This document shows positions 34,683-47,726 of a DNA stretch of 64,000 bases, piece by piece. This stretch comes from a virus (taxonomy: Duplodnaviria; Caudoviricetes). Below the pieces are notes generated by a model. That model saw only the letters and a list, made by a program, of their open reading frames with translations. It was not told the origin of the DNA and did no database searches. Made by a program: the position numbers and the translations under genes. Numbering within the stretch: the stretch's first letter is position 1; each line of letters begins with the position of its first letter. The stretch is taken from IMG/VR virus record IMGVR_UViG_3300028048_003161, one strand, 5' to 3'.

Positions 34683-34742
34683 AGAGATTAACATAGAATA
34701 ATTAAGTGGTTTAGCAAATAGAAATTAGTGGAGGACATAAAA

Positions 34743-36059
34743 ATGGCAGAGTTAAACGTTGAAGATAAGATGGTGCGTACAACAGTTAAGCTTAGATTAA
34801 AGATTAGTTCATTCTATTCTGCAATCTACAGTTCACTTAGTCATAACGAAAGTGACATGGTTGAGAAAATGGAGTTCTGTGGTAAAAATATGTATTACAA
34901 TCCTAAATATATTGAGGCACTTGAATCTGATGAGGTTACATTTGAGGCAATGCATTTAGCAGTTCATATTGGTTTATTGCACGTAGTCAGACTTGCAAGA
35001 AAGAAGCAAACACGTAAGTCTGTAAACTACAAACTGTTTAATATCGCATGTGATCTTATTGCGAATTCCTTACTCTATGAGGAATTTGGGGTTGGACCTG
35101 AAAGACCTGTAACATACATTAAGATGCCTAAGGGCGAGTTCTTCTGTTCTACAGTAAGTGTTGATACAGACACTGTAGAGGACTTATATGAGTATATGTT
35201 GTCACAAATGGACAATGATAAGGACTTTATTACTGTTAGAGGTAAAAAGCAACTTTCTGATTATGACAATATGCAGAATTATGCTGAACTTAAGATTGAT
35301 AAAAAAGACATTGAAAATTATACACCTGACATCAATACTACAGAGATGTCTGATGGAGTTGCAGATGCAGACGCTGTTGAGAGACAGTCACGACAGATGT
35401 TAAATGCAGCTTACATGAAGAGTAAGATGATGGGCGATGGTGCTCAGGCAGGAGTTGGTGGAGTTGGTTTAGCACGAGAAGTTGGTAAGATCATGTCAAG
35501 TCATATGGATTGGCGTAAGTATCTTAAGAGATTCTGTATCAAAATGAAAGAATCAGAGGCTTCATTTGCTACACCTGACAAAAGAATGTATTACCAGAGT
35601 TTAATCTATCCTGGACATAGTAAGAAATTAAGTAATGAGATTGACAACGTTAAGATTTGTTTTGATACCAGTGGTTCTATTTCAGAGGACGATCTGGGAA
35701 GATTTCTTGGACAGGTACTAAAGCTGACTACACAGTATAAAGTAGATGCTGATCTTATTTGTTGGGATGGGGATGTTGAGTCAGTAACAAACCTTAACAA
35801 GAAATCAACATTGAAAAACAATAAGATGTACGGTGGTGGAGGTACGGATCCTTCATGTATCTTTAGATACTTCGACTCACCTGCTTGTAAGCGTAAACCT
35901 TATGTGACAATCATCTTCACAGATGGTTATATCCTTGAAGAAGGACTGAATAACCCTTCTTGGGGTCGTAAGTACAAGGATACACTTTGGGTATTAACAA
36001 AAGATTACAATAGAGATTTTCGACCTCCATTTGGAAAAGTGACAGAGGTTGAGCAGTAG
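34743..36059 (+). CDS. DUF2201-like metallopeptidase-vWA protein (HExxH altered to HLAVH)
   Basis: YNP..., HLAVH...H..R, NIACD...N, DW...L, vWA DTSGS, GGGTD, IFTDG. Confidence 0.8.
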   Translation: MAELNVEDKMVRTTVKLRLKISSFYSAIYSSLSHNESDMVEKMEFCGKNMYYNPKYIEALESDEVTFEAMHLAVHIGLLHVVRLARKKQTRKSVNYKLFNIACDLIANSLLYEEFGVGPERPVTYIKMPKGEFFCSTVSVDTDTVEDLYEYMLSQMDNDKDFITVRGKKQLSDYDNMQNYAELKIDKKDIENYTPDINTTEMSDGVADADAVERQSRQMLNAAYMKSKMMGDGAQAGVGGVGLAREVGKIMSSHMDWRKYLKRFCIKMKESEASFATPDKRMYYQSLIYPGHSKKLSNEIDNVKICFDTSGSISEDDLGRFLGQVLKLTTQYKVDADLICWDGDVESVTNLNKKSTLKNNKMYGGGGTDPSCIFRYFDSPACKRKPYVTIIFTDGYILEEGLNNPSWGRKYKDTLWVLTKDYNRDFRPPFGKVTEVEQ

Positions 36060-37162: not shown

Positions 37163-37649
37163 CATAGGAATGAAGTTAATTGCACCTGATGGTACTTATG
37201 ATATCATTAAAGTAATTGCAGATACAGATGAATTATGGGAAGAGGTCAGGTCTAGAAATTCAGGAGAGAATAAGTATAATTACAGATACATACTTGACAA
37301 TAGAATTACTTCTAATATAGAAGTTGTGACAGAAGAGACTGGGGATTGTGCAAGGGTTGTTTATGATTATGCATTTACAGGAATGGAAGGTTACCTTGTA
37401 CAACTTGTGGAGGTACTAGATAATAGTGAGAGTGACAGTGTAGTTGAAGGAGTTGCATTGACAGATGCATTTCTTATAGGAGCATGCATTGAGGAATTAA
37501 AGAAATGCAGTGGCGTAAAAGAGTCAGAAAATGGTAGAATGAAGATTGAGCATGGAGATTGGAGTGTTACATTTTTCAGGCATAAGTTAATTAAGATTGG
37601 TGCAGCTGCTAAATCAATAGTACATATTGAATTTGAAGCAATGCAGTAG
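37137..37649 (+). CDS. hypothetical protein
   Basis: GGAGG RBS, overlaps previous gene. Confidence 0.65.
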   Translation: MGNTISMNNIGMKLIAPDGTYDIIKVIADTDELWEEVRSRNSGENKYNYRYILDNRITSNIEVVTEETGDCARVVYDYAFTGMEGYLVQLVEVLDNSESDSVVEGVALTDAFLIGACIEELKKCSGVKESENGRMKIEHGDWSVTFFRHKLIKIGAAAKSIVHIEFEAMQ

Positions 37650-37734
37650 AAAGTTAAACAATGGACATGGTTATAGTCATTGAAAATATAATAAATAAAT
37701 TTTTATTATTTTATTATTTTTTAGGGGTGTAAAC

Positions 37735-37989
37735 ATGAGCATTGGTTTATCAGAGATAATACTTATTGGTTTAATAGTATTAGCATTGTTCAAACCTGAG
37801 AAACTTAAAGAATATGCAAGAGCATTAGGAAAAGCACTTAGGTACTTAAAGGATGAAAAAGAGAAGATTGATGATAGTGTTATAACACCTGTAAAAGAAG
37901 CAATGGAGCCTGTAACTGATATCAAGAAAGACATTGATGAGACAGTTGGAAGCATTAAGGATACATTGACAGCAGATAATAAAAAATGA
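37735..37989 (+). CDS. tatB: TatA/TatB-family protein (TatB-like)
   Basis: IG.SEI..I....L.LF.PEKL...AR.LGK..R..K: short TM plus amphipathic helix; hinge Gly replaced by Lys. Confidence 0.8.
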   Translation: MSIGLSEIILIGLIVLALFKPEKLKEYARALGKALRYLKDEKEKIDDSVITPVKEAMEPVTDIKKDIDETVGSIKDTLTADNKK

Positions 37990-38023
37990 AAAGAACAAAT
38001 GATTATAGGAGGATAACATTATC

Positions 38024-38212
38024 ATGGGTACAGGAATTTTTGAGATTTTTCTGGTTGTTTTGGTAATATTTCTGTTTGTGGGACCTAAGCAGTTGCCAAA
38101 GTTGACAAGAGCAGTGAAAGATTCAATTCACGAGATCAAAGACGAAGTAGGCAAGGATAAAGAAAAGTCAGACAGTGAAGATGAGGAAGAGGACAGTAAG
38201 AAAGAGGCATAG
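38024..38212 (+). CDS. tatA: TatA-family protein
   Basis: G..EI..V......F.GPKQLPKL.R....SI.E.K then charged tail. Confidence 0.85.
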   Translation: MGTGIFEIFLVVLVIFLFVGPKQLPKLTRAVKDSIHEIKDEVGKDKEKSDSEDEEEDSKKEA

Positions 38213-38226
38213 GAGCGGTTGGAGCC

Positions 38227-38973
38227 GTGAAGAGACACAAGAAAAATAAAGATCCTAACAGCTTAACTTTAGGTGAGCATTTAAGAGAACTGAAGAAACG
38301 TGTATTTAGCATATTACTAGCATTTGTTGTAGTATTTATACTAGCCTATGTGAAAAGTGAAAACATATTAGCATTTGTGATGTCTTTAGGTAAAAGGGCA
38401 GGATACACATTTGTATATATTTCACCTCAAGAAGTAATTCTACAGCAGTTAAGAATTGCAGGAGTGTTTTCAATAATTGTGGTATTGCCTTTGATAATTT
38501 ATCACATTGCAAGGTTTGTTTCACCTGTATTTACAAGTAAGCATGCTTTTAGAAAGTTGATACTTATAGGAATTGGAGCAATCCTGTTCTTTGTAGCTGG
38601 TACACTATTCGCTTATAAGGTGTTACTTCCTTTTGTATATCAGTTCTTTTATGGGCTAGGAAATGACTTAGGGATTCAAGCCAATGTATCATTGGATGAA
38701 TATTTGTCATTGTTCTTAACAATTGAAATTTGTTTGGGGGTTGTGACAGAAATGCCTTTAGCTTGTTTGGTTTTAACAAGGGCAGGAGTAATAAATTCAA
38801 CCTTGTTGAAAAAGGGAAGGGTAGTAGCAACAGTGATAATATTCATTGTTGGAGCAATTATAACACCTCCTGATGTGGTTTCACAGTGTATGGTTGCAAT
38901 ACCTATGGTTGGTTTATATCAGTTAAGCATTTGGGTAAGCACTTTAGCAGAAAAGAAAAAGAGAGGTAAGTAA
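38227..38973 (+). CDS. tatC: TatC twin-arginine translocase core subunit with divergent first cytoplasmic loop
   Basis: LGEHLRELKKR, six TM segments, EMP, AIITPPDVVSQ...P...LY. Confidence 0.92.
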   Translation: MKRHKKNKDPNSLTLGEHLRELKKRVFSILLAFVVVFILAYVKSENILAFVMSLGKRAGYTFVYISPQEVILQQLRIAGVFSIIVVLPLIIYHIARFVSPVFTSKHAFRKLILIGIGAILFFVAGTLFAYKVLLPFVYQFFYGLGNDLGIQANVSLDEYLSLFLTIEICLGVVTEMPLACLVLTRAGVINSTLLKKGRVVATVIIFIVGAIITPPDVVSQCMVAIPMVGLYQLSIWVSTLAEKKKRGK

Positions 38974-38976
38974 GAA

Positions 38977-39102
38977 ATGAGTGACAGCACAAAGAAAATT
39001 ACAATTATTGGCACTGGTGCCATAGTTATAGCTGTTATTATTGGTGTAGTTCATACAGTTGCAAAGATTGTTCCTGCTATGGTTGATGATTATGAGGACT
39101 AG
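38977..39102 (+). CDS. 41-aa single-TM protein (below ORF-track cutoff)
   Basis: MSDSTKKITIIGTGAIVIAVIIGVVHTVAKIVPAMVDDYED; GAGG RBS inside tatC end. Confidence 0.6.
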   Translation: MSDSTKKITIIGTGAIVIAVIIGVVHTVAKIVPAMVDDYED

Positions 39103-39150
39103 GAATTATAAAAAGTGAGACAAGTAGTTTATTTTAGGAGGCAGTCAGAA

Positions 39151-39420
39151 ATGAAAGAGGATACAGAGAGTAAAATAACTAGAGCAGAGTTCTTAAAGAA
39201 ATCTGCATTAGGAATGGCTGCTGTAGCACTTGCAGCAAAGTTTGGAACAGGTATTGTTTCAACACCTAGTCCTACACAAAGTAAGAGTAGTGGAGGTACT
39301 TGTGTGAGTGCAGTAGCACCGAGTGATAAGACAGTTGTTTGGATTGACACAGCTCATGGGGGTATTACAAAATATTGGGATGGACATGAGTGGAAACCTA
39401 CAGTTGCTACTTGGGGTTAA
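39151..39420 (+). CDS. small protein with Tat-type signal peptide (single-Arg variant)
   Basis: AGGAGG RBS; ITRAEFLKK then hydrophobic h-region; mature part AP.D..VWID......KYWDG..W....TWG. Confidence 0.75.
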   Translation: MKEDTESKITRAEFLKKSALGMAAVALAAKFGTGIVSTPSPTQSKSSGGTCVSAVAPSDKTVVWIDTAHGGITKYWDGHEWKPTVATWG

Positions 39421-39448
39421 ATAGGAGCATAAGAGTAGAGGTTTTAAC

Positions 39449-40027
39449 ATGAAGGCAAAAAAGGTAAAAGAGTTAAAAAGGAAACTCAAAAATGAACTGC
39501 GTAGAAGAAATGGTTATGGTTCAGTTGCTCATTTAGCTGCTAACAGGTACAACTTTGATGAGCAACCAGAAGATGGTAAGCCAATTAAAGCAGAGCATGG
39601 AGAAAAAACAGTTAATCTATTACTTCAAATAGAGGACATTGAAGGTCTGACAGCAGTCAGGAAAGGTGATCCGATACCTGAAGCTTTTAACGAAAAGCTT
39701 ATTGAAGTTGTAGAAAAGCTTGCAGGAGAAGAAATGAATGGTGAGTCAGAGTTCACTGCAAGAGTGATACATACAAACAAAAAGGCAGAGAGGTCATCTT
39801 GTAGAGCAGAATGTACAGGTTTATGTGTAGGAAGTTGCATAGGGTTTTGCAATGGATGCCATGGTTGTACAGGATGTAGCGGTACTTGTGAGGGTGAACG
39901 TGCAATTACAGGTGCTGAACAGAGAAGAGTGAATAGATGCGTTAGGACAATGAGAACATCAGTTGATAATTCTAATTGGGCAGGAATTAAGGCAGGTATT
40001 TATAATGAAGTAATTAAAAATAAATAA
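39449..40027 (+). CDS. Cys-rich CXXX-repeat protein, putative radical SAM substrate
   Basis: CRAECTGLCVGSCIGFCNGCHGCTGCSGTC (9 Cys, 39800-39889) upstream of a radical SAM gene. Confidence 0.75.
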   Translation: MKAKKVKELKRKLKNELRRRNGYGSVAHLAANRYNFDEQPEDGKPIKAEHGEKTVNLLLQIEDIEGLTAVRKGDPIPEAFNEKLIEVVEKLAGEEMNGESEFTARVIHTNKKAERSSCRAECTGLCVGSCIGFCNGCHGCTGCSGTCEGERAITGAEQRRVNRCVRTMRTSVDNSNWAGIKAGIYNEVIKNK

Positions 40028-40042
40028 TTTTGGAGAAAAATA

Positions 40043-40360
40043 ATGGAGAAACTAGACATTAAAGACAATGGATTGCATGTTTATGATGTACCTGAACGTT
40101 ATCAATATGTAATTAACAGAGGTACATTTGAATTGAGTAAGGCAGCAAGCAATATTGCTTTTATGCTTGACAAACATTTGGATGATCCTGATTGGTTGGA
40201 CAGTGAGTTGTATCAGCAGCTCGAGCATAGGTTGATTGAGACATCAATTAACAACTGGGTTTATACAAATGGTGCATTACTTGCTATGGGAATTGACCCT
40301 GCAAAGTATGCTTGGAAAATAAGCAGAGACTATACAGAAATAGCAGTTCAAAGGAGATAA
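40043..40360 (+). CDS. CXXX-repeat modification system associated protein
   Basis: helical hairpin ending W.I....TEI; similar to each half of 41935-42606. Confidence 0.55.
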   Translation: MEKLDIKDNGLHVYDVPERYQYVINRGTFELSKAASNIAFMLDKHLDDPDWLDSELYQQLEHRLIETSINNWVYTNGALLAMGIDPAKYAWKISRDYTEIAVQRR

Positions 40361-40362
40361 AC

Positions 40363-41871
40363 ATGGAAAAGCAACGTAGGAAAAGAAAGAAATTCCTTCA
40401 ATTTAACGAATGGATTTCTAATATGTACCCTGAATATGTGAGACAGGCTCAGGAAAGAGCAGGTGGGGTATCACTTACAGACCTGGAGAAAGAAAATCAT
40501 AGGGCAATTCCTTTATCAAAGGAATTTACATTTCAGGTTACAGACAAATGTAATTTAGCATGTACATATTGTTATCAGATCAACAAGTCAACAAGGAGGA
40601 TGCCATTTGAAACTGCAAAGATTGCAGTTGATAAGTTATTAAGCGGCGCAGATGGGTTTGGTGATTACGTCAATCCTGAAACATCACCAGCTATTGTACT
40701 TGACTTCATTGGTGGTGAGCCTTTCTTGGAGGTTGAACTCATTGATCAGATTGTGGATTACTTTAGAGAACAAGCTATTAAGCTTAGACACCCTTGGGCA
40801 GAGAAATTTGCAATCAGCATTTGTACAAATGGAGTACTTTACAAGGATCCTAAGGTACAAAAGTTTTTGCAGAAGAATACAGCTAATTTGAGTTTGTCTG
40901 TCACAGTTGATGGAATTAAGGAACTTCATGATGCTTGTAGAATATTCCCTGATGGCAGACCTTCATATGATTTAGCTCATGGAGCAGCACTTGATTGGAT
41001 GGCTCGTGGTTATGACATGGGAAGTAAGATCACAATCGCACCTAACAACATTAAGTTTTTATCAAAGAGTCTTAAGCAAATGGTTGAGGATGGTTACTAT
41101 GACATCAATGCTAACTGTGTATACGAGGATGTTTGGAAACCTGAACATGCAACAGAACTTTACTATCAGTGTAAAGATTTCACAGACTTTATCAAAGATA
41201 AGATTGATCTGTTTGATTATAGTTTCTCACTTTTACAAGAAAGATGTGGTAACCCTCTGTTAGAGAGTGATAACAATAACTGGTGTGGTGGTACAGGAGA
41301 CATGTTAGCAGTAGATCCTGATGGAAGAATCTTCCCTTGCATCAGATATATGGAGAGTAGCCTTGGCACACAGCAGAAGCCTATTGTTATTGGTGATGTG
41401 TGGAGAGGTATTGCACAGAAACCTTGTGAGAAAGAATGTTTAGAGTGCATGGGAAAAATCACTAGACGTTCACAGTCAACAGATGAGTGCTTCTATTGTC
41501 CAATTGGACAGGGTTGTGGCTGGTGTTCAGGGTTTAATTACCAGACATTTGGTACAGTCAACAAGAGAGCAACATTTACATGTGAGATGCATAAGTCACA
41601 GGCTTTAGCATCCTGCTATTTCAATAACAGTTTTGCTTTATTAAGCGAGAGATACAAAGATTTTGCAATGGACTTATGGGTTCCTGAGCAGTGGGCAGTT
41701 CCTATGATTGGTCAGGAAGAATATGACAAGCTTGTAGGAATGTGTAGACAGCTTGGTAGGTATGTAAATGATCAGAATGCTACAATGGTTAAGATACATG
41801 CAGATGAGGGCAGCGGTGAAATTTCTGATTACATTCATAATCAGGATAAGATTGAGGTGCTGGCACGATAA
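40363..41871 (+). CDS. radical SAM/SPASM peptide maturase, CXXX-repeat target type
   Basis: TFQVTDKCNLACTYCY, FIGGEP, TNG, DG...HD..R, SPASM WCGG...G.IFPC...C..C..C...C..C...C; AGGAGA RBS before ATG 40363. Confidence 0.9.
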   Translation: MEKQRRKRKKFLQFNEWISNMYPEYVRQAQERAGGVSLTDLEKENHRAIPLSKEFTFQVTDKCNLACTYCYQINKSTRRMPFETAKIAVDKLLSGADGFGDYVNPETSPAIVLDFIGGEPFLEVELIDQIVDYFREQAIKLRHPWAEKFAISICTNGVLYKDPKVQKFLQKNTANLSLSVTVDGIKELHDACRIFPDGRPSYDLAHGAALDWMARGYDMGSKITIAPNNIKFLSKSLKQMVEDGYYDINANCVYEDVWKPEHATELYYQCKDFTDFIKDKIDLFDYSFSLLQERCGNPLLESDNNNWCGGTGDMLAVDPDGRIFPCIRYMESSLGTQQKPIVIGDVWRGIAQKPCEKECLECMGKITRRSQSTDECFYCPIGQGCGWCSGFNYQTFGTVNKRATFTCEMHKSQALASCYFNNSFALLSERYKDFAMDLWVPEQWAVPMIGQEEYDKLVGMCRQLGRYVNDQNATMVKIHADEGSGEISDYIHNQDKIEVLAR

Positions 41872-41934
41872 TAATAGGTATTAACTATTTGTTTAATAGT
41901 TAAGATATAAATAATTAAAAAGGAGATATTAAAA

Positions 41935-42606
41935 ATGAAGATTACAGAAAAGATTATCAAAGTAAGCACGGAGGATACCAATAATGTGCAGACTTTAGAC
42001 TTGAGACAGCAGGCTTTGGAGAACACAATTGTTTCGTTTGTAGAGATGCATGCACTTGATGAGACACCTGCAGTACAGGAGAGTCCTATGATGCAGAGAT
42101 ACGAAGAGCGTTATGAAGATGCTCTGATGGCGTTTGATTCAGCTAAGTCAGCAATCGCTGATAAGTACATCGACGAAGAAATGCAGAAGATCTGTTCTAA
42201 GTGGTCACTTGAGTACAACACTTGTGAGTTAAAGTGTGAGGTTTCAGAGGGATTCAAGAATGACGATGCAGCTATTAAGGATGTGATCATCACAGTTTCA
42301 GAGGAAGATGCAAAGAAGATTCATAAGCTGGACATTAAACAGCAGGCACTTCAGAATATCGTTGCTTCATTTGCAGAGATGCATGCACTTGACAGTACAT
42401 ATGCTGCTCAGGAGAGTACTATGATGCAGAGATATGAGGAAAGATATGCAGAGGCTTTAACAGCATTTGATACTGCTAAGTCAGAATTAGCAGACAAGTA
42501 TATTAGTAAAGAGATGCAGGAAGTTGTAGCTAAATGGTCATTAGAGTATGACAGCTGCGAACTTAAGTGCAAGGTACCTGCTGATTATGAGTATAAAGCA
42601 GAGTAA
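41935..42606 (+). CDS. two-domain tandem-repeat protein, CXXX-system associated
   Basis: two near-identical ~110-aa halves (QQAL.N...SF.EMHALD...MMQRYEERY...KWSLEY..CELKC). Confidence 0.75.
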   Translation: MKITEKIIKVSTEDTNNVQTLDLRQQALENTIVSFVEMHALDETPAVQESPMMQRYEERYEDALMAFDSAKSAIADKYIDEEMQKICSKWSLEYNTCELKCEVSEGFKNDDAAIKDVIITVSEEDAKKIHKLDIKQQALQNIVASFAEMHALDSTYAAQESTMMQRYEERYAEALTAFDTAKSELADKYISKEMQEVVAKWSLEYDSCELKCKVPADYEYKAE

Positions 42607-42731
42607 TAAAAGAGAGATAGACAGGACAGCTTAAATTGGTGCACATGTTGGTTTAATACTGACATGTGCATTGATTGATGTTTATAGAGAAGAGACATTA
42701 AAGGTAGACATAAGAGAGGGAGGATAAAGCA

Positions 42732-43514
42732 GTGAAAAACAAGGTATTAGCTTTATTTTTAACATTAACAATTACATCTGCAACGTTTACAGGTTGTGGA
42801 GAGGCTAAAACAGTAGTTGCACCTGTACCTAGCACTCAATCAGAAGTGCAGACAAATAATACAGAAGTTGCAGAGGTAGTCAATGAAGAGACAGAGGGTA
42901 CAGAGGTTGCTGATGAAGCACCAGTAGAAGTAAACAAAGAGTACAGGTCAATACCTGGTGGTAATCTTGTAGAAGAGGCAACTGATACATCTTCAAAATA
43001 CAAGATTCATTGGAAGTATGGCAGTTCAGACAGCAAGATTGAGTTTGAGTCAGTTTATGGAAATATTGGATCATTCAAAAATGAAGAGCAGCCAGATGAT
43101 GATGGAGTAGTTAGACTTTGTACACAGACAGACTGGGTTTCAGTTGTAGACTGGGGTGGTTCTGATGACTACACAGCTAAGGCACAGGCAAAAGATCTGA
43201 AAGCAAAAGATGCATTGAAAGCATTTGACAGTCTTAAGCCTGATTATGATAAAGCAGTGACAGATGACAGTAACAGTGACGAATTAAAGGTTTATACAGC
43301 ATTTGGTAATGCAGACAGTGCTGATGGCATTCATGGTTATGTGGTTAACATCAGGAACTTCAAACTTCACAAGTCAGCTAATGTCATTGTTGAGGGTAGA
43401 GAGGGACTTAACTACAATGATGAGTACCTGAAACAAATTGTTGATACAATGCACATTGGTACATTCGATGACACTGAGGTCGTTGAGAGTAAGAGTGATA
43501 AAAGCAGTAAATAA
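42732..43514 (+). CDS. lipoprotein
   Basis: signal with FTGC lipobox, acidic linker. Confidence 0.75.
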   Translation: MKNKVLALFLTLTITSATFTGCGEAKTVVAPVPSTQSEVQTNNTEVAEVVNEETEGTEVADEAPVEVNKEYRSIPGGNLVEEATDTSSKYKIHWKYGSSDSKIEFESVYGNIGSFKNEEQPDDDGVVRLCTQTDWVSVVDWGGSDDYTAKAQAKDLKAKDALKAFDSLKPDYDKAVTDDSNSDELKVYTAFGNADSADGIHGYVVNIRNFKLHKSANVIVEGREGLNYNDEYLKQIVDTMHIGTFDDTEVVESKSDKSSK

Positions 43515-43625: not shown

Positions 43626-44669
43626 ATGAAGAAGTCAAGAGTAATTAGTTTATTAACAGCTATTGTAATTGGGGCAAGCTTAACAGGTTGTGGTATGGAC
43701 TTGCACTATACAGTAGATACACAGGGTAAGACACATGAAGAGAATACAATCTACGTAACAGATGAAGAAGATAAACAGCTTGGTTTTGCTGAAAGTGCTA
43801 AGGATAAAGATAATGGCATAACCTACATGGGCACTCAAGAAGTCAATGGTAAGCAGTATAGAGTTTATCATGCAGTAGAGACAGAGAAAAACAAGGATAA
43901 GGACGCCATTAAAATTGGCGGACCTCAATTGTTTGACAAGACAGAGTTTGTAATGAGTTACAATAACTCAGGTAAGTCAGACAATGCCACAGAGTGGCAA
44001 AACGTGTATGTTAGTATGAATGATCCTGTATTGTTTACAAATGGCGAACTTTCAACTAATGGAAAGAACGTTGAGTTTAAGAATGTGCAGGATAAAAAAG
44101 GTACTGGTCTGCTTTATGTTTATACGAAGTCAGCTAAAAATGGTGTAATGCTTTCTAGTAAAAATATGAATACAGTTACATCTGAGAAGATGAAGCAGGG
44201 TGGAACAATGAATGTTACAGAGAAAAATGCAATGGTTACATCTAAAGTAGGTTATGGACTTACAAAAGATGGAACAATCAACATTGTAACTCCTGATAAG
44301 GTACAGAAGGTAACAGTGAATGGCAAGGCAGTTTCATTTAAGGGCAATAAGATTAAGCTTAGTAAGAGTGGAACATACACAGTAAAAGTAAAGACAAGGT
44401 ACTTTAATAATAAATTCAAGCTTGTGGTTGATAAAACTAGACCTACAATTACAGGTAGGATGTCAGATAAAAAGATGGATGTATCAGTGACAGATAATGA
44501 CAAAAACATGAGTGTTTATGTGGATGACAAAGCATCATTTGCAACTGCAAAGAAATTAAAGGGTGGTAAATATAATATGACAATGAAAGTCACTGGAAAT
44601 GGGAAACATACAGTAAAAGCAGTAGATTCAGCAGGAAATGTACATAAAGTTACATTTACAATTAGATAA
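43626..44669 (+). CDS. lipoprotein with C-terminal Ig-like domains
   Basis: LTGC lipobox; SGTYTV.V, DKTRPTI and G.HTV.AVD.AGN Ig-like motifs. Confidence 0.75.
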   Translation: MKKSRVISLLTAIVIGASLTGCGMDLHYTVDTQGKTHEENTIYVTDEEDKQLGFAESAKDKDNGITYMGTQEVNGKQYRVYHAVETEKNKDKDAIKIGGPQLFDKTEFVMSYNNSGKSDNATEWQNVYVSMNDPVLFTNGELSTNGKNVEFKNVQDKKGTGLLYVYTKSAKNGVMLSSKNMNTVTSEKMKQGGTMNVTEKNAMVTSKVGYGLTKDGTINIVTPDKVQKVTVNGKAVSFKGNKIKLSKSGTYTVKVKTRYFNNKFKLVVDKTRPTITGRMSDKKMDVSVTDNDKNMSVYVDDKASFATAKKLKGGKYNMTMKVTGNGKHTVKAVDSAGNVHKVTFTIR

Positions 44670-44682
44670 TGGAGAAAAGATT

Positions 44683-45687
44683 ATGAGTGATATAAAAAAT
44701 AATGGTTTAGCAGAGGATGAGGTCATTGAGGACTTCTCCTCTTCTGTAATACCAGAGGAAAATTCAAAAAAGAGCAATAAAAAGAAAGACAACAGTAAGT
44801 ATTTTAAGAAAATACTTCTGGGGATAATCATGGCACTTGTGTTGATTGGTATTGGCATATATGCAAAGAGCAATAGTGAACAAGATAAGCATATCAATGT
44901 AAGTGACAATACAGAAAGTAAAAATGGTTTGGCAGTTACAAATAATGGTGATACAGAAGTAGTTGGTGATGCTAGCACAGAAATTGTGAGTAGTACAGAG
45001 GCTACAGGCAGTGAGGACATTGATAAAATTGTAAGAAGCAACATTGTAAAAAGCAATGTACCTAAGAAAACAGTGAAAGGTACAAAGAGTAAACCTGCTA
45101 AGGCAGGTGAATGGGTAAAAGTACCTGTAACAATTAACACTAAATTAAATGATAAAGCATCATTTGATAATTACAAGTCATATGTTTATGTGAAAATGAA
45201 CAAGGTAGTTTCTGGGTATGATCAAGTTGTTGAATATATTAACAACTATAATGCTTTAAGCAACATAGTTGTAAATGTAGATAACAATGATAAAAAAGAT
45301 GTCAAGATTGCAATGTATGAGTTCGAGCTTGTGTATAATGATGAGTACCCTACTTACATGTCAAGGGATAAGATTTATGCAATGCCTGATTTGAAGTTAT
45401 CACTTAAGGGAACAGTGGATCAGCTTGATAATAGAAAACTTGACAAGAAGAAATCAAGTGATTACATTGTAGTTGGTTCTAAAATTTATAATGTGGCTGA
45501 TGCAACAAGTATTACAGATAAGCAGGTGGATGAAACAAATGGTACATCAATAAATAACAAGATAGTTTATAGGTTTGTGGTTTATGTACCTAAGGGTGCA
45601 AATAGTGACAACTATGTTGAAAAGGTTAACATTAAGATTGATAAAAACAAGCAGGATGCTTATTTTATAGGGCAAGCAATAAAGTAA
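44683..45687 (+). CDS. single-TM membrane protein with extracellular beta-rich domain
   Basis: TM at residues ~30-50, linker, PAK.GEWV start of beta domain. Confidence 0.7.
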   Translation: MSDIKNNGLAEDEVIEDFSSSVIPEENSKKSNKKKDNSKYFKKILLGIIMALVLIGIGIYAKSNSEQDKHINVSDNTESKNGLAVTNNGDTEVVGDASTEIVSSTEATGSEDIDKIVRSNIVKSNVPKKTVKGTKSKPAKAGEWVKVPVTINTKLNDKASFDNYKSYVYVKMNKVVSGYDQVVEYINNYNALSNIVVNVDNNDKKDVKIAMYEFELVYNDEYPTYMSRDKIYAMPDLKLSLKGTVDQLDNRKLDKKKSSDYIVVGSKIYNVADATSITDKQVDETNGTSINNKIVYRFVVYVPKGANSDNYVEKVNIKIDKNKQDAYFIGQAIK

Positions 45688-45711: not shown

Positions 45712-46476
45712 ATGTTACATTGGGATGAAAAAGATGCATTAAAAGCGTTAGGGGTTGATCAAGAAACAGAATTAAAGCAGAGGTATTTAGATTATAATGC
45801 AAATGATAGAGAGGAAATTACATCTGAATTATATTCTTTGCTTAAGAAGAATAGAGCAAAGCAGATGAGGAATAACCTGTTATACATTGCTGCAATAACT
45901 GCTATCTTTCTTTCTTGTTTTCTGGTCATCAGATATGTAAATGACTTCAGTGAATCATTACTGGCTACACAGAATATTTCAATCAGTTTCCCTTCTAGTT
46001 TGATATATGACAATGAGAGAGATAGCGGGTATCAAGCAAATTTCATTAAGGATCATAACTTAAATGATATAAGCACAGGTGCTGATGGGGCATTAGTATT
46101 AAGTCTTAATAGGGAAGATAGGGATGCATTAAGGAATTACTACAAGCAGTTAATGAATGACTATAAAGACACTTTAATTAAGGATGATAGTAATGATATT
46201 GTTAAGGTCAATATAAGTAAGGACTATAAGAAAATAACCATTACAGTGGATAGTGATGAGGTTAGCAAGCTTGATTACTTGCACAGCAGTATAGTTTATG
46301 CTCAAGTTCAGAAATATATGATTGTCAGCGGTAAAGAAATAAGTGATTACAGTGATGTTATGATTAAGAGCAGTGAGAATGGAAAAGTACTTGGAACATT
46401 GAACGATTACAGAGTAAAATTCGACGATGTAATTAGTGATTACAGCGTTGAAATTAAAAAAATTACTAAAAAATAA
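45712..46476 (+). CDS. single-TM membrane protein
   Basis: hydrophobic helix LLYIAAITAIFLSCFLVI. Confidence 0.7.
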   Translation: MLHWDEKDALKALGVDQETELKQRYLDYNANDREEITSELYSLLKKNRAKQMRNNLLYIAAITAIFLSCFLVIRYVNDFSESLLATQNISISFPSSLIYDNERDSGYQANFIKDHNLNDISTGADGALVLSLNREDRDALRNYYKQLMNDYKDTLIKDDSNDIVKVNISKDYKKITITVDSDEVSKLDYLHSSIVYAQVQKYMIVSGKEISDYSDVMIKSSENGKVLGTLNDYRVKFDDVISDYSVEIKKITKK

Positions 46477-46517: not shown

Positions 46518-46577
46518 ATATTGTAAGTATATTTAATAAATAATTTGTTTAATATAAGAAAGCGAGGATTTTTAATT

Positions 46578-47726
46578 ATGGCAAACTTAAGCATTCCAGC
46601 AGTTAGTGTAGGACAGTTCAATCAGATCGTGGAGCAGCAGATCAGAGAAGAGAACTACAGACCTATTATTGGTTTAGGCAAGGGTGGTATTGGTAAGTCT
46701 GAATCACTGGGAGACCTGGCAAAGAGACTTGGTATTGGATATATTGACTTAAGACTTCTGTTATATACAGAGACAGACTTAAAGGGTATTCCTTATCCTA
46801 GCGTTGATCATAAGAAAACAGTCTGGCTGACAAATGATATTTTACCTCAGTTTGATGCAGAGCATCCTGAAAACAGCAGAGATCCTGAAAGAGGAATTCT
46901 TGTACTTGATGAAGTTACATCAGCAAGTAAGAGTGTAAGAACAGCAGCTTATCAGCTCCTGCAGGAAAGAAAGTTAAATGACTATGTACTTCCTGAGAAA
47001 TGGCTTGTAGTATGTATTGGAAATGGTGAGGACGATGGCGGTGAGTACAATGGTATCGAGCCTAACTTTGCTAACAGGTGCTCTGTTTATGAGGTAGTTG
47101 CAAAGTTTGATGAGTGGAAAACATGGGCGGTTGCACATGGGGTAAATCCTATGGTCATTGCTTATCTGAATACTAACAATCAGGATTTTCACAACTTCAA
47201 CCCTGATTCTGATACAGACCTTGTGTTTGCATCGCCTCGTTCATGGAAGGCAGTAAGCGACATTCTGAATATGAATGAGTTCAATCCTGAAAATGAAGTG
47301 TTACTTGCAAGAATGGAAGCTAACGTAGGTAGTGGTCCAGTTGTAGCATTTAAAACTTTCATGGAGTACAAAAATCAGATGCTGAATACAGATGCTATTT
47401 TGGCAGGAGATTTTCCTGAGGTTGATAACATTCCTAATGAGGTTCTGTACATTACCTTAACAAACTTAAGCAGTAAGATGGCAGAGATTTTTGAGAGATG
47501 CCAGAAGAAGGGTGGCTTTGATGATGTGGCTCTGCATCAGGTAGGAAATGCAGTACGTTGGGTACTTGATCCTGATAGACCTAAGGAGTTCAGTGCTATG
47601 GCAGTAAATGACCTTATCAGATCAAATAAGGATGCATTTACAAGTTTATTAGGAAGTCAGCAGTTTAAGAATATCTGTCCTGAACTTAGTAACTTTGCAT
47701 GTACTAACAGAAACATCTACAGATAA
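46578..47726 (+). CDS. MoxR/AAA_5-like ATPase (usual partner of DUF2201-vWA proteins)
   Basis: GKGGIGKS, DL.G.PYP, LVLDE, GN, ANR, SPRSW. Confidence 0.88.
   Translation: MANLSIPAVSVGQFNQIVEQQIREENYRPIIGLGKGGIGKSESLGDLAKRLGIGYIDLRLLLYTETDLKGIPYPSVDHKKTVWLTNDILPQFDAEHPENSRDPERGILVLDEVTSASKSVRTAAYQLLQERKLNDYVLPEKWLVVCIGNGEDDGGEYNGIEPNFANRCSVYEVVAKFDEWKTWAVAHGVNPMVIAYLNTNNQDFHNFNPDSDTDLVFASPRSWKAVSDILNMNEFNPENEVLLARMEANVGSGPVVAFKTFMEYKNQMLNTDAILAGDFPEVDNIPNEVLYITLTNLSSKMAEIFERCQKKGGFDDVALHQVGNAVRWVLDPDRPKEFSAMAVNDLIRSNKDAFTSLLGSQQFKNICPELSNFACTNRNIYR

What the first reader, a model, noticed from the sequence alone, without database searches (positions are those of the whole stretch)
39151..42606. 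Radical-SAM-modified Cys-repeat protein apparently exported by hitchhiking on a tiny Tat-signal carrier
Seen: one operon of Tat-signal 89-aa protein, 192-aa protein with C-x3-C-x3-C-x3-C-x3-C-x2-C-x2-C-x2-C-x3-C, a helical accessory protein, a radical SAM/SPASM enzyme and a second accessory protein, directly after tatC. The Cys-rich protein has no signal peptide, and I see no ABC exporter or peptidase in the locus. Established: CXXX-repeat-target radical SAM families exist but their products are uncharacterised to my knowledge, and Tat can co-export folded partner proteins. Inference: the cross-linked or metal-loaded folded protein binds the short WID..KYWDG..W module (reminiscent of phage fibre repeats) and exits through the dedicated Tat. 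This would be a RiPP-like protein secretion system on a mobile element.
Basis: partly seen in the sequence, partly recalled or inferred. Interest (0 to 1): 0.82.

Follow-up and report, generated by a model that had tools for sequence, protein, structure and literature searches.

The report
Private Tat exporter tied to radical-SAM system
A giant mobile element of gut Firmicutes carries its own altered Tat export machine, always next to a tiny exported piece of phage tail fibre and a radical-SAM system that modifies a cysteine-ladder protein, which suggests (but does not prove) that the modified protein is carried out of the cell.

Summary
The genes are real and sit as described: tatA, a second tatA/B-like gene, tatC, a 41-aa membrane ORF, the 89-aa signal protein, the 192-aa Cys-ladder protein, a helper, a TIGR04115 radical SAM/SPASM maturase (442 bits, cutoff 350) and a duplicated helper.

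Three results change the picture.
1. The passenger of the 89-aa protein is the C-terminal "LWIDT..KYYNG..W..WG" module of phage tail fibres. In ordinary phages this module ends the fibre gene directly upstream of the Cys-ladder gene.
2. The signal has one arginine (TRAEFLKK). None of 18 signal-bearing relatives has RR.
3. The TatC belongs to a clade that lacks Glu103, a key residue for binding the RR motif. Every clade member with enough flanking DNA (six lineages; a seventh has tat and the W gene on a short contig) is followed by a single-Arg W-protein, a Cys-ladder gene and the maturase. No ordinary TatC locus has them (0 of 31 metagenome, 0 of 80 genome loci).

So this is a dedicated Tat variant coupled to a CXXX radical-SAM system. 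Hitchhiking of the Cys protein is plausible but untested. First readers noted the same stretch on this genome only. I found no paper describing it.

The parts
37680..37709 (+). promoter-like site ahead of tatA
   Evidence: Consensus scan only, 10 of 12 matches. Not evidence of function.
37735..37989 (+). TatA-family subunit, 84 aa
   Evidence: PF02416 39.6 bits, cutoff 21. Best NCBIfam models are TatA/E, all below cutoff. Glu at position 7 of the TM segment.
38024..38212 (+). second TatA/B-family subunit, 62 aa, TatB-like G-P-x-x-L-P hinge
   Evidence: PF02416 32.3 bits. Best NCBIfam model is TatB TIGR01410, E 8.7e-9, below cutoff.
38227..38973 (+). TatC of a clade that lacks Glu103 (E. coli numbering)
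   Evidence: TIGR00945 167 bits, cutoff 132.7. Matches A. aeolicus TatC 4b4a at E 4.5e-31. Aligned with E. coli TatC it keeps E15, F94, E170 and the TPPD motif, and Glu103 is lost (Ala in the four-sequence alignment; His in the 121-sequence one, because of a one-residue insertion).
38977..39102 (+). 41-aa single-TM ORF
   Evidence: ORF. Called as a 41-aa gene at the same place in L001 and L004. Absent in lineage L006.
39151..39420 (+). 89-aa W-protein: single-Arg Tat-type signal (residues about 1-40: TRAEFLKK, Ala/Gly-rich h-region, Lys in the c-region) plus a tail-fibre C-terminal W-module (residues 48-89, ending WG)
   Evidence: It is the only W-module and the only Tat-like signal in the 64-kb window.
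39449..40027 (+). 192-aa Cys-ladder protein: conserved N-domain (residues 1-115), Cys core (residues 118-147, bases 39800-39889), lineage-specific 45-aa tail
   Evidence: Cys pattern. N-domain family found in 82 of 87 rSAM-anchored loci. Alignments A2 and A6. AF2 model has pLDDT about 64-90 over residues 1-100.
40043..40360 (+). 105-aa helper A, TIGR04116-superfamily
   Evidence: An iterated search from helper A and one from helper B retrieve nearly the same ORFs (91 shared of 92 and 94). AF2 model pLDDT 89: strand, two 27-residue helices, beta-hairpin.
40363..41871 (+). radical SAM/SPASM maturase, CXXX-repeat target family
   Evidence: TIGR04115 441.9 bits, cutoff 350, model positions 2-359 of 359. 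CNLACTYC cluster motif and SPASM Cys motifs read directly.
41935..42606 (+). 223-aa helper B, tandem duplication of a TIGR04116-like domain
   Evidence: TIGR04116 E 9.6e-5, 22.5 bits, below the cutoff of 50. Halves 61% identical. Single-domain homologues follow the rSAM gene in L005, L006, L088 and L090.
42634..42676 (+). terminator-like hairpin after the last gene
   Evidence: The only terminator-like site in 37500-42800.

Best explanation
The stretch 37735-42606 is one conserved module of a giant mobile element of gut Firmicutes. It has three functional parts.

1. A self-contained Tat translocase: TatA, a TatB-like paralogue, and a TatC that has lost Glu103.
2. Its cognate passenger: an 89-aa protein whose single-Arg signal, (S/T)-R-x-(E/D)-F-L-K-K, leads a 42-aa module. 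Elsewhere that module is the extreme C-terminus of phage tail fibres.
3. A CXXX-repeat radical SAM system.

Proposed mechanism:
- In the cytoplasm the SPASM maturase, helped by the two TIGR04116-like proteins, cross-links the CxxxC ladder of the 192-aa protein. By analogy with PapB, SCIFF and QhpD the links are probably thioethers.
- The cross-linked protein cannot use Sec, so it docks on the fibre-tip W-module, its conserved genomic partner.
- The pair is exported through the element's own Tat by the hitchhiker route to the surface of the monoderm host.
- A plausible role there is masking a receptor or decorating the wall, since the pair derives from a fibre end and its tip protein.

Shown here:
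- The gene families.
- The strict Tat-W-CysN-rSAM linkage.
- The joint change of the single-Arg signal and the Glu103-less TatC.
- The fibre origin of the W-module.

Inferred: the chemistry, the W-CysN binding, the co-export and the role.
For: Family assignments:
-.

Survey from the TatC side:
- About 30 of the 120 listed TatC relatives (40-96% identical to the window's TatC) lack Glu103. Nearly all of the remaining hits keep it.
- Every such TatC whose context could be read is followed by a signal-bearing W-protein, a CysN gene and the rSAM. These are the window, L004, L006, L088, L090, L092 and L094/L095 and L180, L182, L185 and L187.
- L329 has the W gene beside tatA-tatA-tatC, but the contig ends before an rSAM could appear.
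- In the metagenome sample, 5 of 5 Glu103-less loci with at least 3 kb downstream carry the W-protein. None of 31 loci that keep Glu103 does.
- None of 80 TatC loci from species genomes has W, CysN or rSAM.

Signals:
- Eighteen signal-bearing W-proteins have K, A, G, S, E, L or M after the Arg, and never R.
- A 2026 review names F94 and E103 as the key RR-binding residues (PMC13673990).

W-CysN partnership:
- In rSAM-anchored IMG/VR loci, every locus with a W-module ORF has one within 130 bp upstream of the CysN gene (674 bp in one case). This covers 43 of 87 loci.
- The carriers give PHROG tail-fibre, tail or virion-structural hits.
- In a W-anchored sample, 52 of 60 loci with a C-terminal W-module have CysN within 6 kb.
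- A stand-alone W-protein without a signal occurs where tat is absent (L003).

Cargo size:
- Tat-linked CysN proteins are small, 146-199 aa with 8-20 Cys. Elsewhere the medians are 362 aa and 62 Cys.
Against: - Nothing measures binding, export or modification.
- The CysN N-domain is equally conserved in phages whose fibre lacks a W-module (L002, L005, L008). It may therefore serve the maturase rather than docking.
- No natural W-CysN fusion was found among 150 W-module representatives.
- A carrier of about 5 kDa would be far smaller than known hitchhiker carriers.
- With one Arg and no Glu103, the route could be inefficient, or the signal could act as an anchor.
- Many surveyed loci are close relatives. 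The independent support is six or seven lineages, not dozens.
- The W-anchored sample is biased, because its search pattern came from rSAM-linked modules.
Confidence: 0.4

Rival explanations
1. Only the W-module is exported. The dedicated Tat secretes or displays the small fibre-tip module alone, for example as a decoy that occupies the fibre's receptor or wall ligand. The Cys-ladder protein stays inside, as a virion or cytoplasmic component that meets W-modules only on fibres.
For: - The W-protein is the only protein in the window's module with a signal.
- The CysN N-domain is conserved without any W-module in L002, L005 and L008.
Against: - It does not explain why this TatC clade is never seen without the rSAM cluster.
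- It does not explain why a 50-aa unmodified passenger should need a private three-gene Tat rather than Sec.
- It does not explain why the Tat-linked CysN proteins are uniformly the smallest.
Confidence: 0.3
2. The Cys-rich products are exported on their own, and the W-protein is a parallel cargo. In several Tat-linked lineages, extra Cys-rich precursors carry signal-like leaders (basic n-region with L-K-K, a 15-17 residue h-region, then AxA). The same Tat could take them directly after cross-linking. The window's N-domain protein would then be a helper or a different product.
For: - Leaders of this type occur in L092 6587-7441, L094 12500-12985 and 13015-13542, L095 10440-11057 and 11979-12581, and L180 6317-6907.
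Against: - The window's module has no such precursor.
- These leaders lack the S/T-R motif.
- Similar though weaker leaders exist in phages without tat (L003), so they may be maturase leaders only.
Confidence: 0.15
3. The translocase is degenerate or repurposed. Loss of Glu103 and of the second Arg means there is no Tat transport. The TatA/C proteins would serve another membrane function, such as lysis timing or membrane remodelling, and the W-protein would be a membrane-anchored protein inserted by other means.
For: - The review reads the absence of F94 and E103 in haloarchaeal TatCt as an inactive RR site.
Against: - F94, E15, E170 and TPPD are kept in the window's TatC, and the polar Glu is kept in both TatA-type subunits.
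- The clade is under purifying selection across lineages 38-55% identical to the window's TatC.
- The passenger keeps every other Tat signal feature (x-F-L-K, weak h-region, basic c-region, AxA) in 18 relatives.
Confidence: 0.1

Closest known systems
CXXX-repeat peptide modification system (NCBIfam TIGR04115 maturase, TIGR04116 helper, TIGR04117 target)
   Same: The maturase scores 442 bits against a cutoff of 350, end to end. A CxxxC-repeat protein and small helper genes flank it.
   Different: - The family is defined only by genome comparison. I found no paper on its chemistry.
- The target and helper here score below their cutoffs.
- The target has a 115-aa folded N-domain.
- The system sits in phage tail modules or, as here, behind a private Tat.
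PapB ranthipeptide, SCIFF (CteB) and QhpD thioether-forming rSAM/SPASM maturases
   Same: They are the next-best models: PapB 158 bits, SCIFF 102 bits, QhpD 91 bits. They have the same rSAM plus SPASM architecture. From my own knowledge, QhpD cross-links a small protein subunit that is then exported.
   Different: - All score far below their cutoffs (340, 425, 453), so this is not a member.
- The chemistry here is unknown.
- From my own knowledge, QhpC leaves by a dedicated exporter after leader cleavage, not by Tat.
Tat hitchhiker export (hydrogenase small/large subunits, Rodrigue et al. 1999, cited in PMC13673990)
   Same: A signal-less, cytoplasmically matured partner would leave with a signal-bearing subunit through Tat.
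   Different: - The carrier would be only about 50 aa.
- The signal has one Arg.
- The translocase is encoded by the mobile element itself.
- Binding is unproven.
Haloarchaeal TatCt with mutated F94/E103 sites (PMC13673990)
   Same: A natural TatC without Glu103.
   Different: - TatCt lacks both F94 and E103, is a fused 14-TM protein, and is read as inactive in RR binding.
- Here F94 is kept, the protein is an ordinary 6-TM TatC, and a matching single-Arg substrate is encoded next to it.
T-even phage long-fibre tip pair gp37/gp38 (from my own knowledge)
   Same: - The gene order is fibre, then tip protein.
- The tip protein has a conserved N-terminal part and a Gly-rich repetitive part of variable length.
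   Different: - No sequence or fold relation was shown.
- The repeats here are Cys-based and come with a radical SAM enzyme.
- A virion location has not been tested.

Membership tests
TIGR04115 radical SAM peptide maturase, CXXX-repeat target family | Full-length HMM score above the curated cutoff | tested here: met
   441.9 bits against a cutoff of 350, model positions 2-359 of 359.
TIGR04115 radical SAM peptide maturase, CXXX-repeat target family | CxxxCxxC radical SAM cluster motif and C-terminal SPASM Cys motifs | tested here: met
   Read from the translation: CNLACTYC; C-x12-G-x4-C (CGGTGDMLAVDPDGRIFPC); C-x2-C-x5-C-x2-C (CFYCPIGQGCGWC), then a further Cys.
TIGR04115 radical SAM peptide maturase, CXXX-repeat target family | Adjacent CXXX-repeat target (TIGR04117) and helper (TIGR04116) | tested here: inconclusive
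   - The target scores 18.8 bits (cutoff 50) and the helper 22.5 bits (cutoff 50).
- The CxxxC ladder is present.
- Iterated searches from helper A and helper B converge on nearly the same ORFs.
Twin-arginine translocase | TatC and TatA-family subunits above family thresholds | tested here: met
   TatC TIGR00945 167.4 bits (cutoff 132.7). PF02416 39.6 and 32.3 bits (cutoff 21).
Twin-arginine translocase | RR-binding residues F94 and E103 of TatC | tested here: not met
   - F94 is kept and E103 is lost in the window's TatC. About 30 of the 120 listed TatC relatives share the loss.
- These two are named as the key residues in PMC13673990.
Twin-arginine translocase | Consecutive Arg-Arg in the substrate signal | tested here: not met
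   The window has TRAEFLKK. None of 18 signal-bearing relatives has RR.
Tat hitchhiker pair | The signal-less partner binds the signal-bearing subunit before transport | not testable with these tools
   Only conserved gene adjacency speaks to it. It needs a binding or export experiment.
RiPP | Leader removed by a cluster peptidase and product exported by a cluster transporter | tested here: not met
   No peptidase or ABC transporter gene lies between 37.7 and 42.7 kb or in the next genes. The 115-aa N-domain models as a folded domain.
Phage tail-fibre C-terminal W-module (unnamed; nearest Pfam family is DUF2510) | Match to a profile built from fibre C-termini, ending in W-G at the C-terminus | tested here: met
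   - E 7.4e-24 to the profile built here.
- Alignment A5 has invariant P, W-I, G, W, W.
- The profile finds 1339 representative clusters.
- DUF2510 scores 23.8 bits against a cutoff of 24, and only in a multi-copy relative.

The most novel reading that the evidence does not exclude
Giant mobile elements of gut Firmicutes carry an orthogonal Tat pathway. Its signal code has shifted from RR to a single Arg, together with loss of TatC Glu103. Its sole job would be to secrete radical-SAM cross-linked Cys-ladder proteins that ride on a module borrowed from phage tail-fibre tips. That would be a secretion system for post-translationally cross-linked proteins. In ordinary phages the same maturation system would build cross-linked fibre-tip proteins.
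Probability: 0.3. Interest if true: 0.9.

Novelty: new variant of a known kind. Interest (0 to 1): 0.8.

Why it matters
- It would be a natural case of a re-coded Tat signal and receptor pair (single Arg, no Glu103). That bears directly on how TatC reads the RR motif, and it offers an orthogonal export channel for engineering.
- It gives the uncharacterised CXXX-repeat radical SAM family a biological setting. The family has 487 relatives in IMG/VR alone, at the ends of phage tail fibres and, in giant elements, behind a private exporter.
- It yields concrete substrates for working out the chemistry.
- It suggests that phages cross-link virion or surface proteins by radical SAM enzymes. I found no paper on this.

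Tried and rejected
Searches that found nothing useful:
- DNA search of the locus against INPHARED phages: no match.
- Window rSAM and TatC as single queries in IMG/VR: no distinct locus.
- No whole genome is held for the window. Records behind L088, L094 and L185 are not held, so I could not test whether the Tat-linked elements encode capsids.
- Word-index search with the 89-aa protein: only near-identical hits.

Complex and fold work:
- Complex prediction of CysN(1-150) with the W-module, using my own alignments: score 0.24 against a mark of 0.32. The tool gives no verdict, so I count this neither for nor against binding.
- Fold searches for the CysN N-domain: Foldseek on the PDB found nothing at E up to 0.001. 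VIA-wide gave a best Z of 5.3, to a Lon N-domain, which is not meaningful for a helical model. BFVD returned only uncharacterised phage homologues.
- Fold searches for helper A returned only generic helical hairpins, Z up to 9.1.

Other checks:
- No natural W-CysN fusion among 150 representatives.
- Literature searches for the CXXX system, rSAM with tail fibres, and phage-encoded Tat found nothing relevant.

Ideas considered and dropped:
- A lipoprotein signal for the W-protein: there is no lipobox, and the Cys is not conserved.
- The upstream GTG start at 39115: relatives call the 41-aa ORF there instead.
Full report
**1. What is there**

The window is 33-41% G+C, has a strong positive GC skew over its first 62 kb, and nearly all credible genes lie on the + strand. 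Replication and partition genes are present: RecJ-like, ParB-like, SbcC-like and family-A polymerase. It matches no known phage by DNA, and no genome is held for it.

Between 37735 and 42606 lie nine closely spaced genes:
- Two TatA-family genes and tatC.
- A 41-aa single-TM ORF.
- An 89-aa signal protein.
- A 192-aa Cys protein.
- A 105-aa helper.
- A 502-aa radical SAM/SPASM enzyme.
- A 223-aa duplicated helper.

Family scores:
- TatC (167 bits, cutoff 132.7) and the maturase (TIGR04115, 441.9 bits, cutoff 350) pass their curated cutoffs.
- The TatA genes pass Pfam's cutoff.
- The Cys target and the helpers hit TIGR04117 and TIGR04116 only weakly.

One promoter-like site precedes tatA, and the only terminator-like hairpin follows the last gene.

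**2. The small passenger is a tail-fibre end**

The maturase has thousands of relatives (4197 at E up to 1e-20), and 487 of them are in IMG/VR. I took 80 IMG/VR loci plus six contigs found by identity look-up, and called ORFs in them.

- The last 42 residues of the 89-aa protein match the extreme C-terminus of proteins of 319-800 aa.
- Three of the five carriers tested hit PHROG tail-fibre or tail families strongly, and one is collagen-like. The roughly 800-aa type hits families labelled head or virion structural protein, and one carrier hits only families of unknown function.
- The module reads ..AP.....LWIDT..GG..KYYNG..W.P..A.WG, followed by the stop codon.
- Every locus with such an ORF (43 of 87) has one directly upstream of the Cys-protein gene. 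The gap is at most 130 bp, or 674 bp in one case.
- The cluster sits at the end of the tail module, before the lysis genes.
- The other loci have fibres with a different, Peptidase_G2-like end.
- A profile of the module finds 1339 representative clusters, with up to 12 copies in giant proteins.
- No Pfam family reaches threshold. DUF2510 comes closest, at 23.8 bits against a cutoff of 24, in a multi-copy relative.
- In a W-anchored IMG/VR sample, 52 of 60 loci with a C-terminal module have the Cys-protein gene within 6 kb. That sample is biased, because its search pattern came from rSAM-linked modules, and about 40 of the loci belong to one phage family.

**3. The Cys proteins**

- All share a conserved N-domain of about 115 aa, followed by the near-invariant motif SSCRGACTGLCVGSC.G.CNGC.
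- After that comes a Cys/Gly/Ser/Thr ladder of very variable length, up to 574 aa and up to 86 Cys.
- The N-domain models as a compact, mostly helical domain with block-mean pLDDT of about 64-90 over residues 1-100.
- It has no informative match among solved structures.
- No peptidase is present, so the N-domain is probably kept in the product.

**4. The Tat side**

*TatC.* Aligned with E. coli TatC, the window's TatC keeps E15, F94, E170 and the TPPD motif but has lost E103. The aligned residue is Ala in the four-sequence alignment and His in the 121-sequence one, because the loop has a one-residue insertion. Lineage L006 has Ser or Lys there. A 2026 review names F94 and E103 as the key RR-binding residues.
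- Among the 120 best TatC relatives, about 30 lack E103. These are 40-96% identical to the window's TatC and come from unnamed metagenome contigs.
- Nearly all of the remaining hits, which include every hit that a source names, read P-G-L-x-x-x-E.

*Contexts.* Every E103-less TatC whose context I could read has the same layout: tatA, tatA, tatC, sometimes a large membrane-anchored protein, then a signal-bearing W-protein, the Cys protein(s), helper, maturase, helper.
- This covers the window, L004, L006, L088, L090, L092, L094/L095, L180, L182, L185 and L187.
- L329 has the W gene beside the three tat genes on a short contig.
- These make six lineages with the full set, and a seventh with tat and W only. 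The contigs reach 396 kb.

*Controls.*
- In the metagenome sample, 5 of 5 E103-less loci with at least 3 kb downstream have the W-protein, against 0 of 31 loci that keep E103.
- In species genomes the nearest TatCs are at most 40% identical. They come from Erysipelotrichaceae, Lachnospiraceae and Oscillospiraceae, have the ordinary loop wherever the loop could be read, and none of 80 is near W, CysN or the maturase.

*The signal.* It is a standard Tat signal in every respect except the second Arg.
- It has S/T-R-x-(E/D)-F-L-K-(K/R), an Ala/Gly-rich h-region, a Lys in the c-region and usually an AxA site.
- After the Arg, 18 relatives have K (8), A, G, S, E, L or M, and never R.
- Where tat is absent, the stand-alone W-protein has no signal (L003).

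The passenger, the shift in the signal code and the change in TatC therefore travel together.

**5. Reading**

The Tat genes, the W-protein and the rSAM system are one functional unit, and the W-protein is the cognate cargo of a Tat variant.

What links a Tat machine to a radical SAM system? The simplest answer is export of the enzyme's product. A protein cross-linked in the cytoplasm by an Fe-S enzyme is the kind of substrate that needs Tat.
- The Cys protein has no signal in any lineage.
- Its conserved neighbour, the W-module, has one.
- Tat-linked Cys proteins are uniformly the smallest, 146-199 aa with 8-20 Cys, against medians of 362 aa and 62 Cys.

I therefore rank hitchhiking first, but only at about 0.4, because nothing measures binding or export.

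Points against:
- The N-domain is conserved in phages without W-modules.
- No natural fusion was found.

Rivals:
- The W-module is exported alone, for example as a receptor or wall-ligand decoy.
- Leader-bearing Cys precursors are exported directly in some lineages.
- The Tat is repurposed or inactive.

The chemistry is inferred only from the nearest characterised relatives, PapB, SCIFF and QhpD, all of which score far below their cutoffs.

**6.

'Homologous rSAM clusters rarely carry tat genes' is literally true: none of the 80 IMG/VR loci carries tat. Those clusters serve fibre modules that assemble in the cytoplasm. The informative direction is from TatC, and there the association is complete.

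**7. Novelty**

I found no paper on the CXXX family's chemistry, on radical SAM enzymes in tail-fibre modules, or on Tat systems encoded by phages or other mobile elements. The 2026 Tat review does not mention phage-encoded Tat translocases.

First readers of this scan noted the same stretch, the single Arg and the TatC loop on this genome. I tested the last two: E103 is lost, and E15 is kept.

Whether the element is a huge phage or a megaplasmid stays open. First readers of this and neighbouring windows noted no virion genes (unchecked). The closest maturases, 60-65% identical, sit between tail-fibre genes; two of those contigs (L003, L005) are 158-220 kb.

Noticed in passing
window 38977-39102: A 41-aa single-TM ORF lies between tatC and the W gene. 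It is called as a gene in the two close relatives L001 and L004 and is absent in lineage L006. Possibly an extra translocase or anchor subunit.
   Followed up: partly
L092 6587-7441; L094 12500-12985 and 13015-13542; L095 10440-11057 and 11979-12581; L180 6317-6907: A second type of Cys-ladder precursor, without the 115-aa N-domain. Its leader looks like a signal peptide: L-K-K, a 15-17 residue h-region, then AxA. Leaders in phages without tat (L003, L005) are weaker.
   Followed up: partly
P0030, P0037; L180 7846-10566: Some maturase homologues carry inteins (LAGLIDADG_3 plus Hint_2 domains, 810 aa). L180 has a 907-aa ORF that spans helper plus maturase.
   Followed up: no
L092 2812-5658; L094 7842-10109; L180 2905-5526; L329 2297-3547: In four Tat-linked lineages a large N-terminally anchored protein directly follows tatC. 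It is coiled-coil or collagen-like, 755-948 aa where complete. The window has no equivalent at that place.
   Followed up: no
window 42732-43514 and 43626-44669: Two lipoprotein-like genes with lipoboxes (FTGC, LTGC) follow the module directly, and two membrane-anchored proteins come after them (44638-45687, 45712-46476). This looks like a block of surface proteins.
   Followed up: no
window 34728-36059 and 46545-47726: A DUF2201 putative metallopeptidase/VWA protein and a MoxR-like AAA ATPase flank the region, about 10 kb apart. Such genes usually work as a pair.
   Followed up: no
L006 14467-14658; L088 14195-14380 and 11100-11987: Tat-linked relatives carry a small acid-soluble spore protein gene (PF00269) and an ATLF-like metalloprotease-domain gene. 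The spore protein gene points to a spore-forming Firmicute host.
   Followed up: no
L005 1-1552 and 10489-12066: The 158-kb phage-like contig with two CXXX maturases also encodes a protein with a major-vault-protein shoulder domain and a flotillin/Band_7 protein.
   Followed up: no
P0250, P0304, P0384 (3098-3614 aa): Giant proteins with 6-12 copies of the W-module. The module family has 1339 representative clusters and no Pfam model that reaches threshold (nearest is DUF2510).
   Followed up: partly
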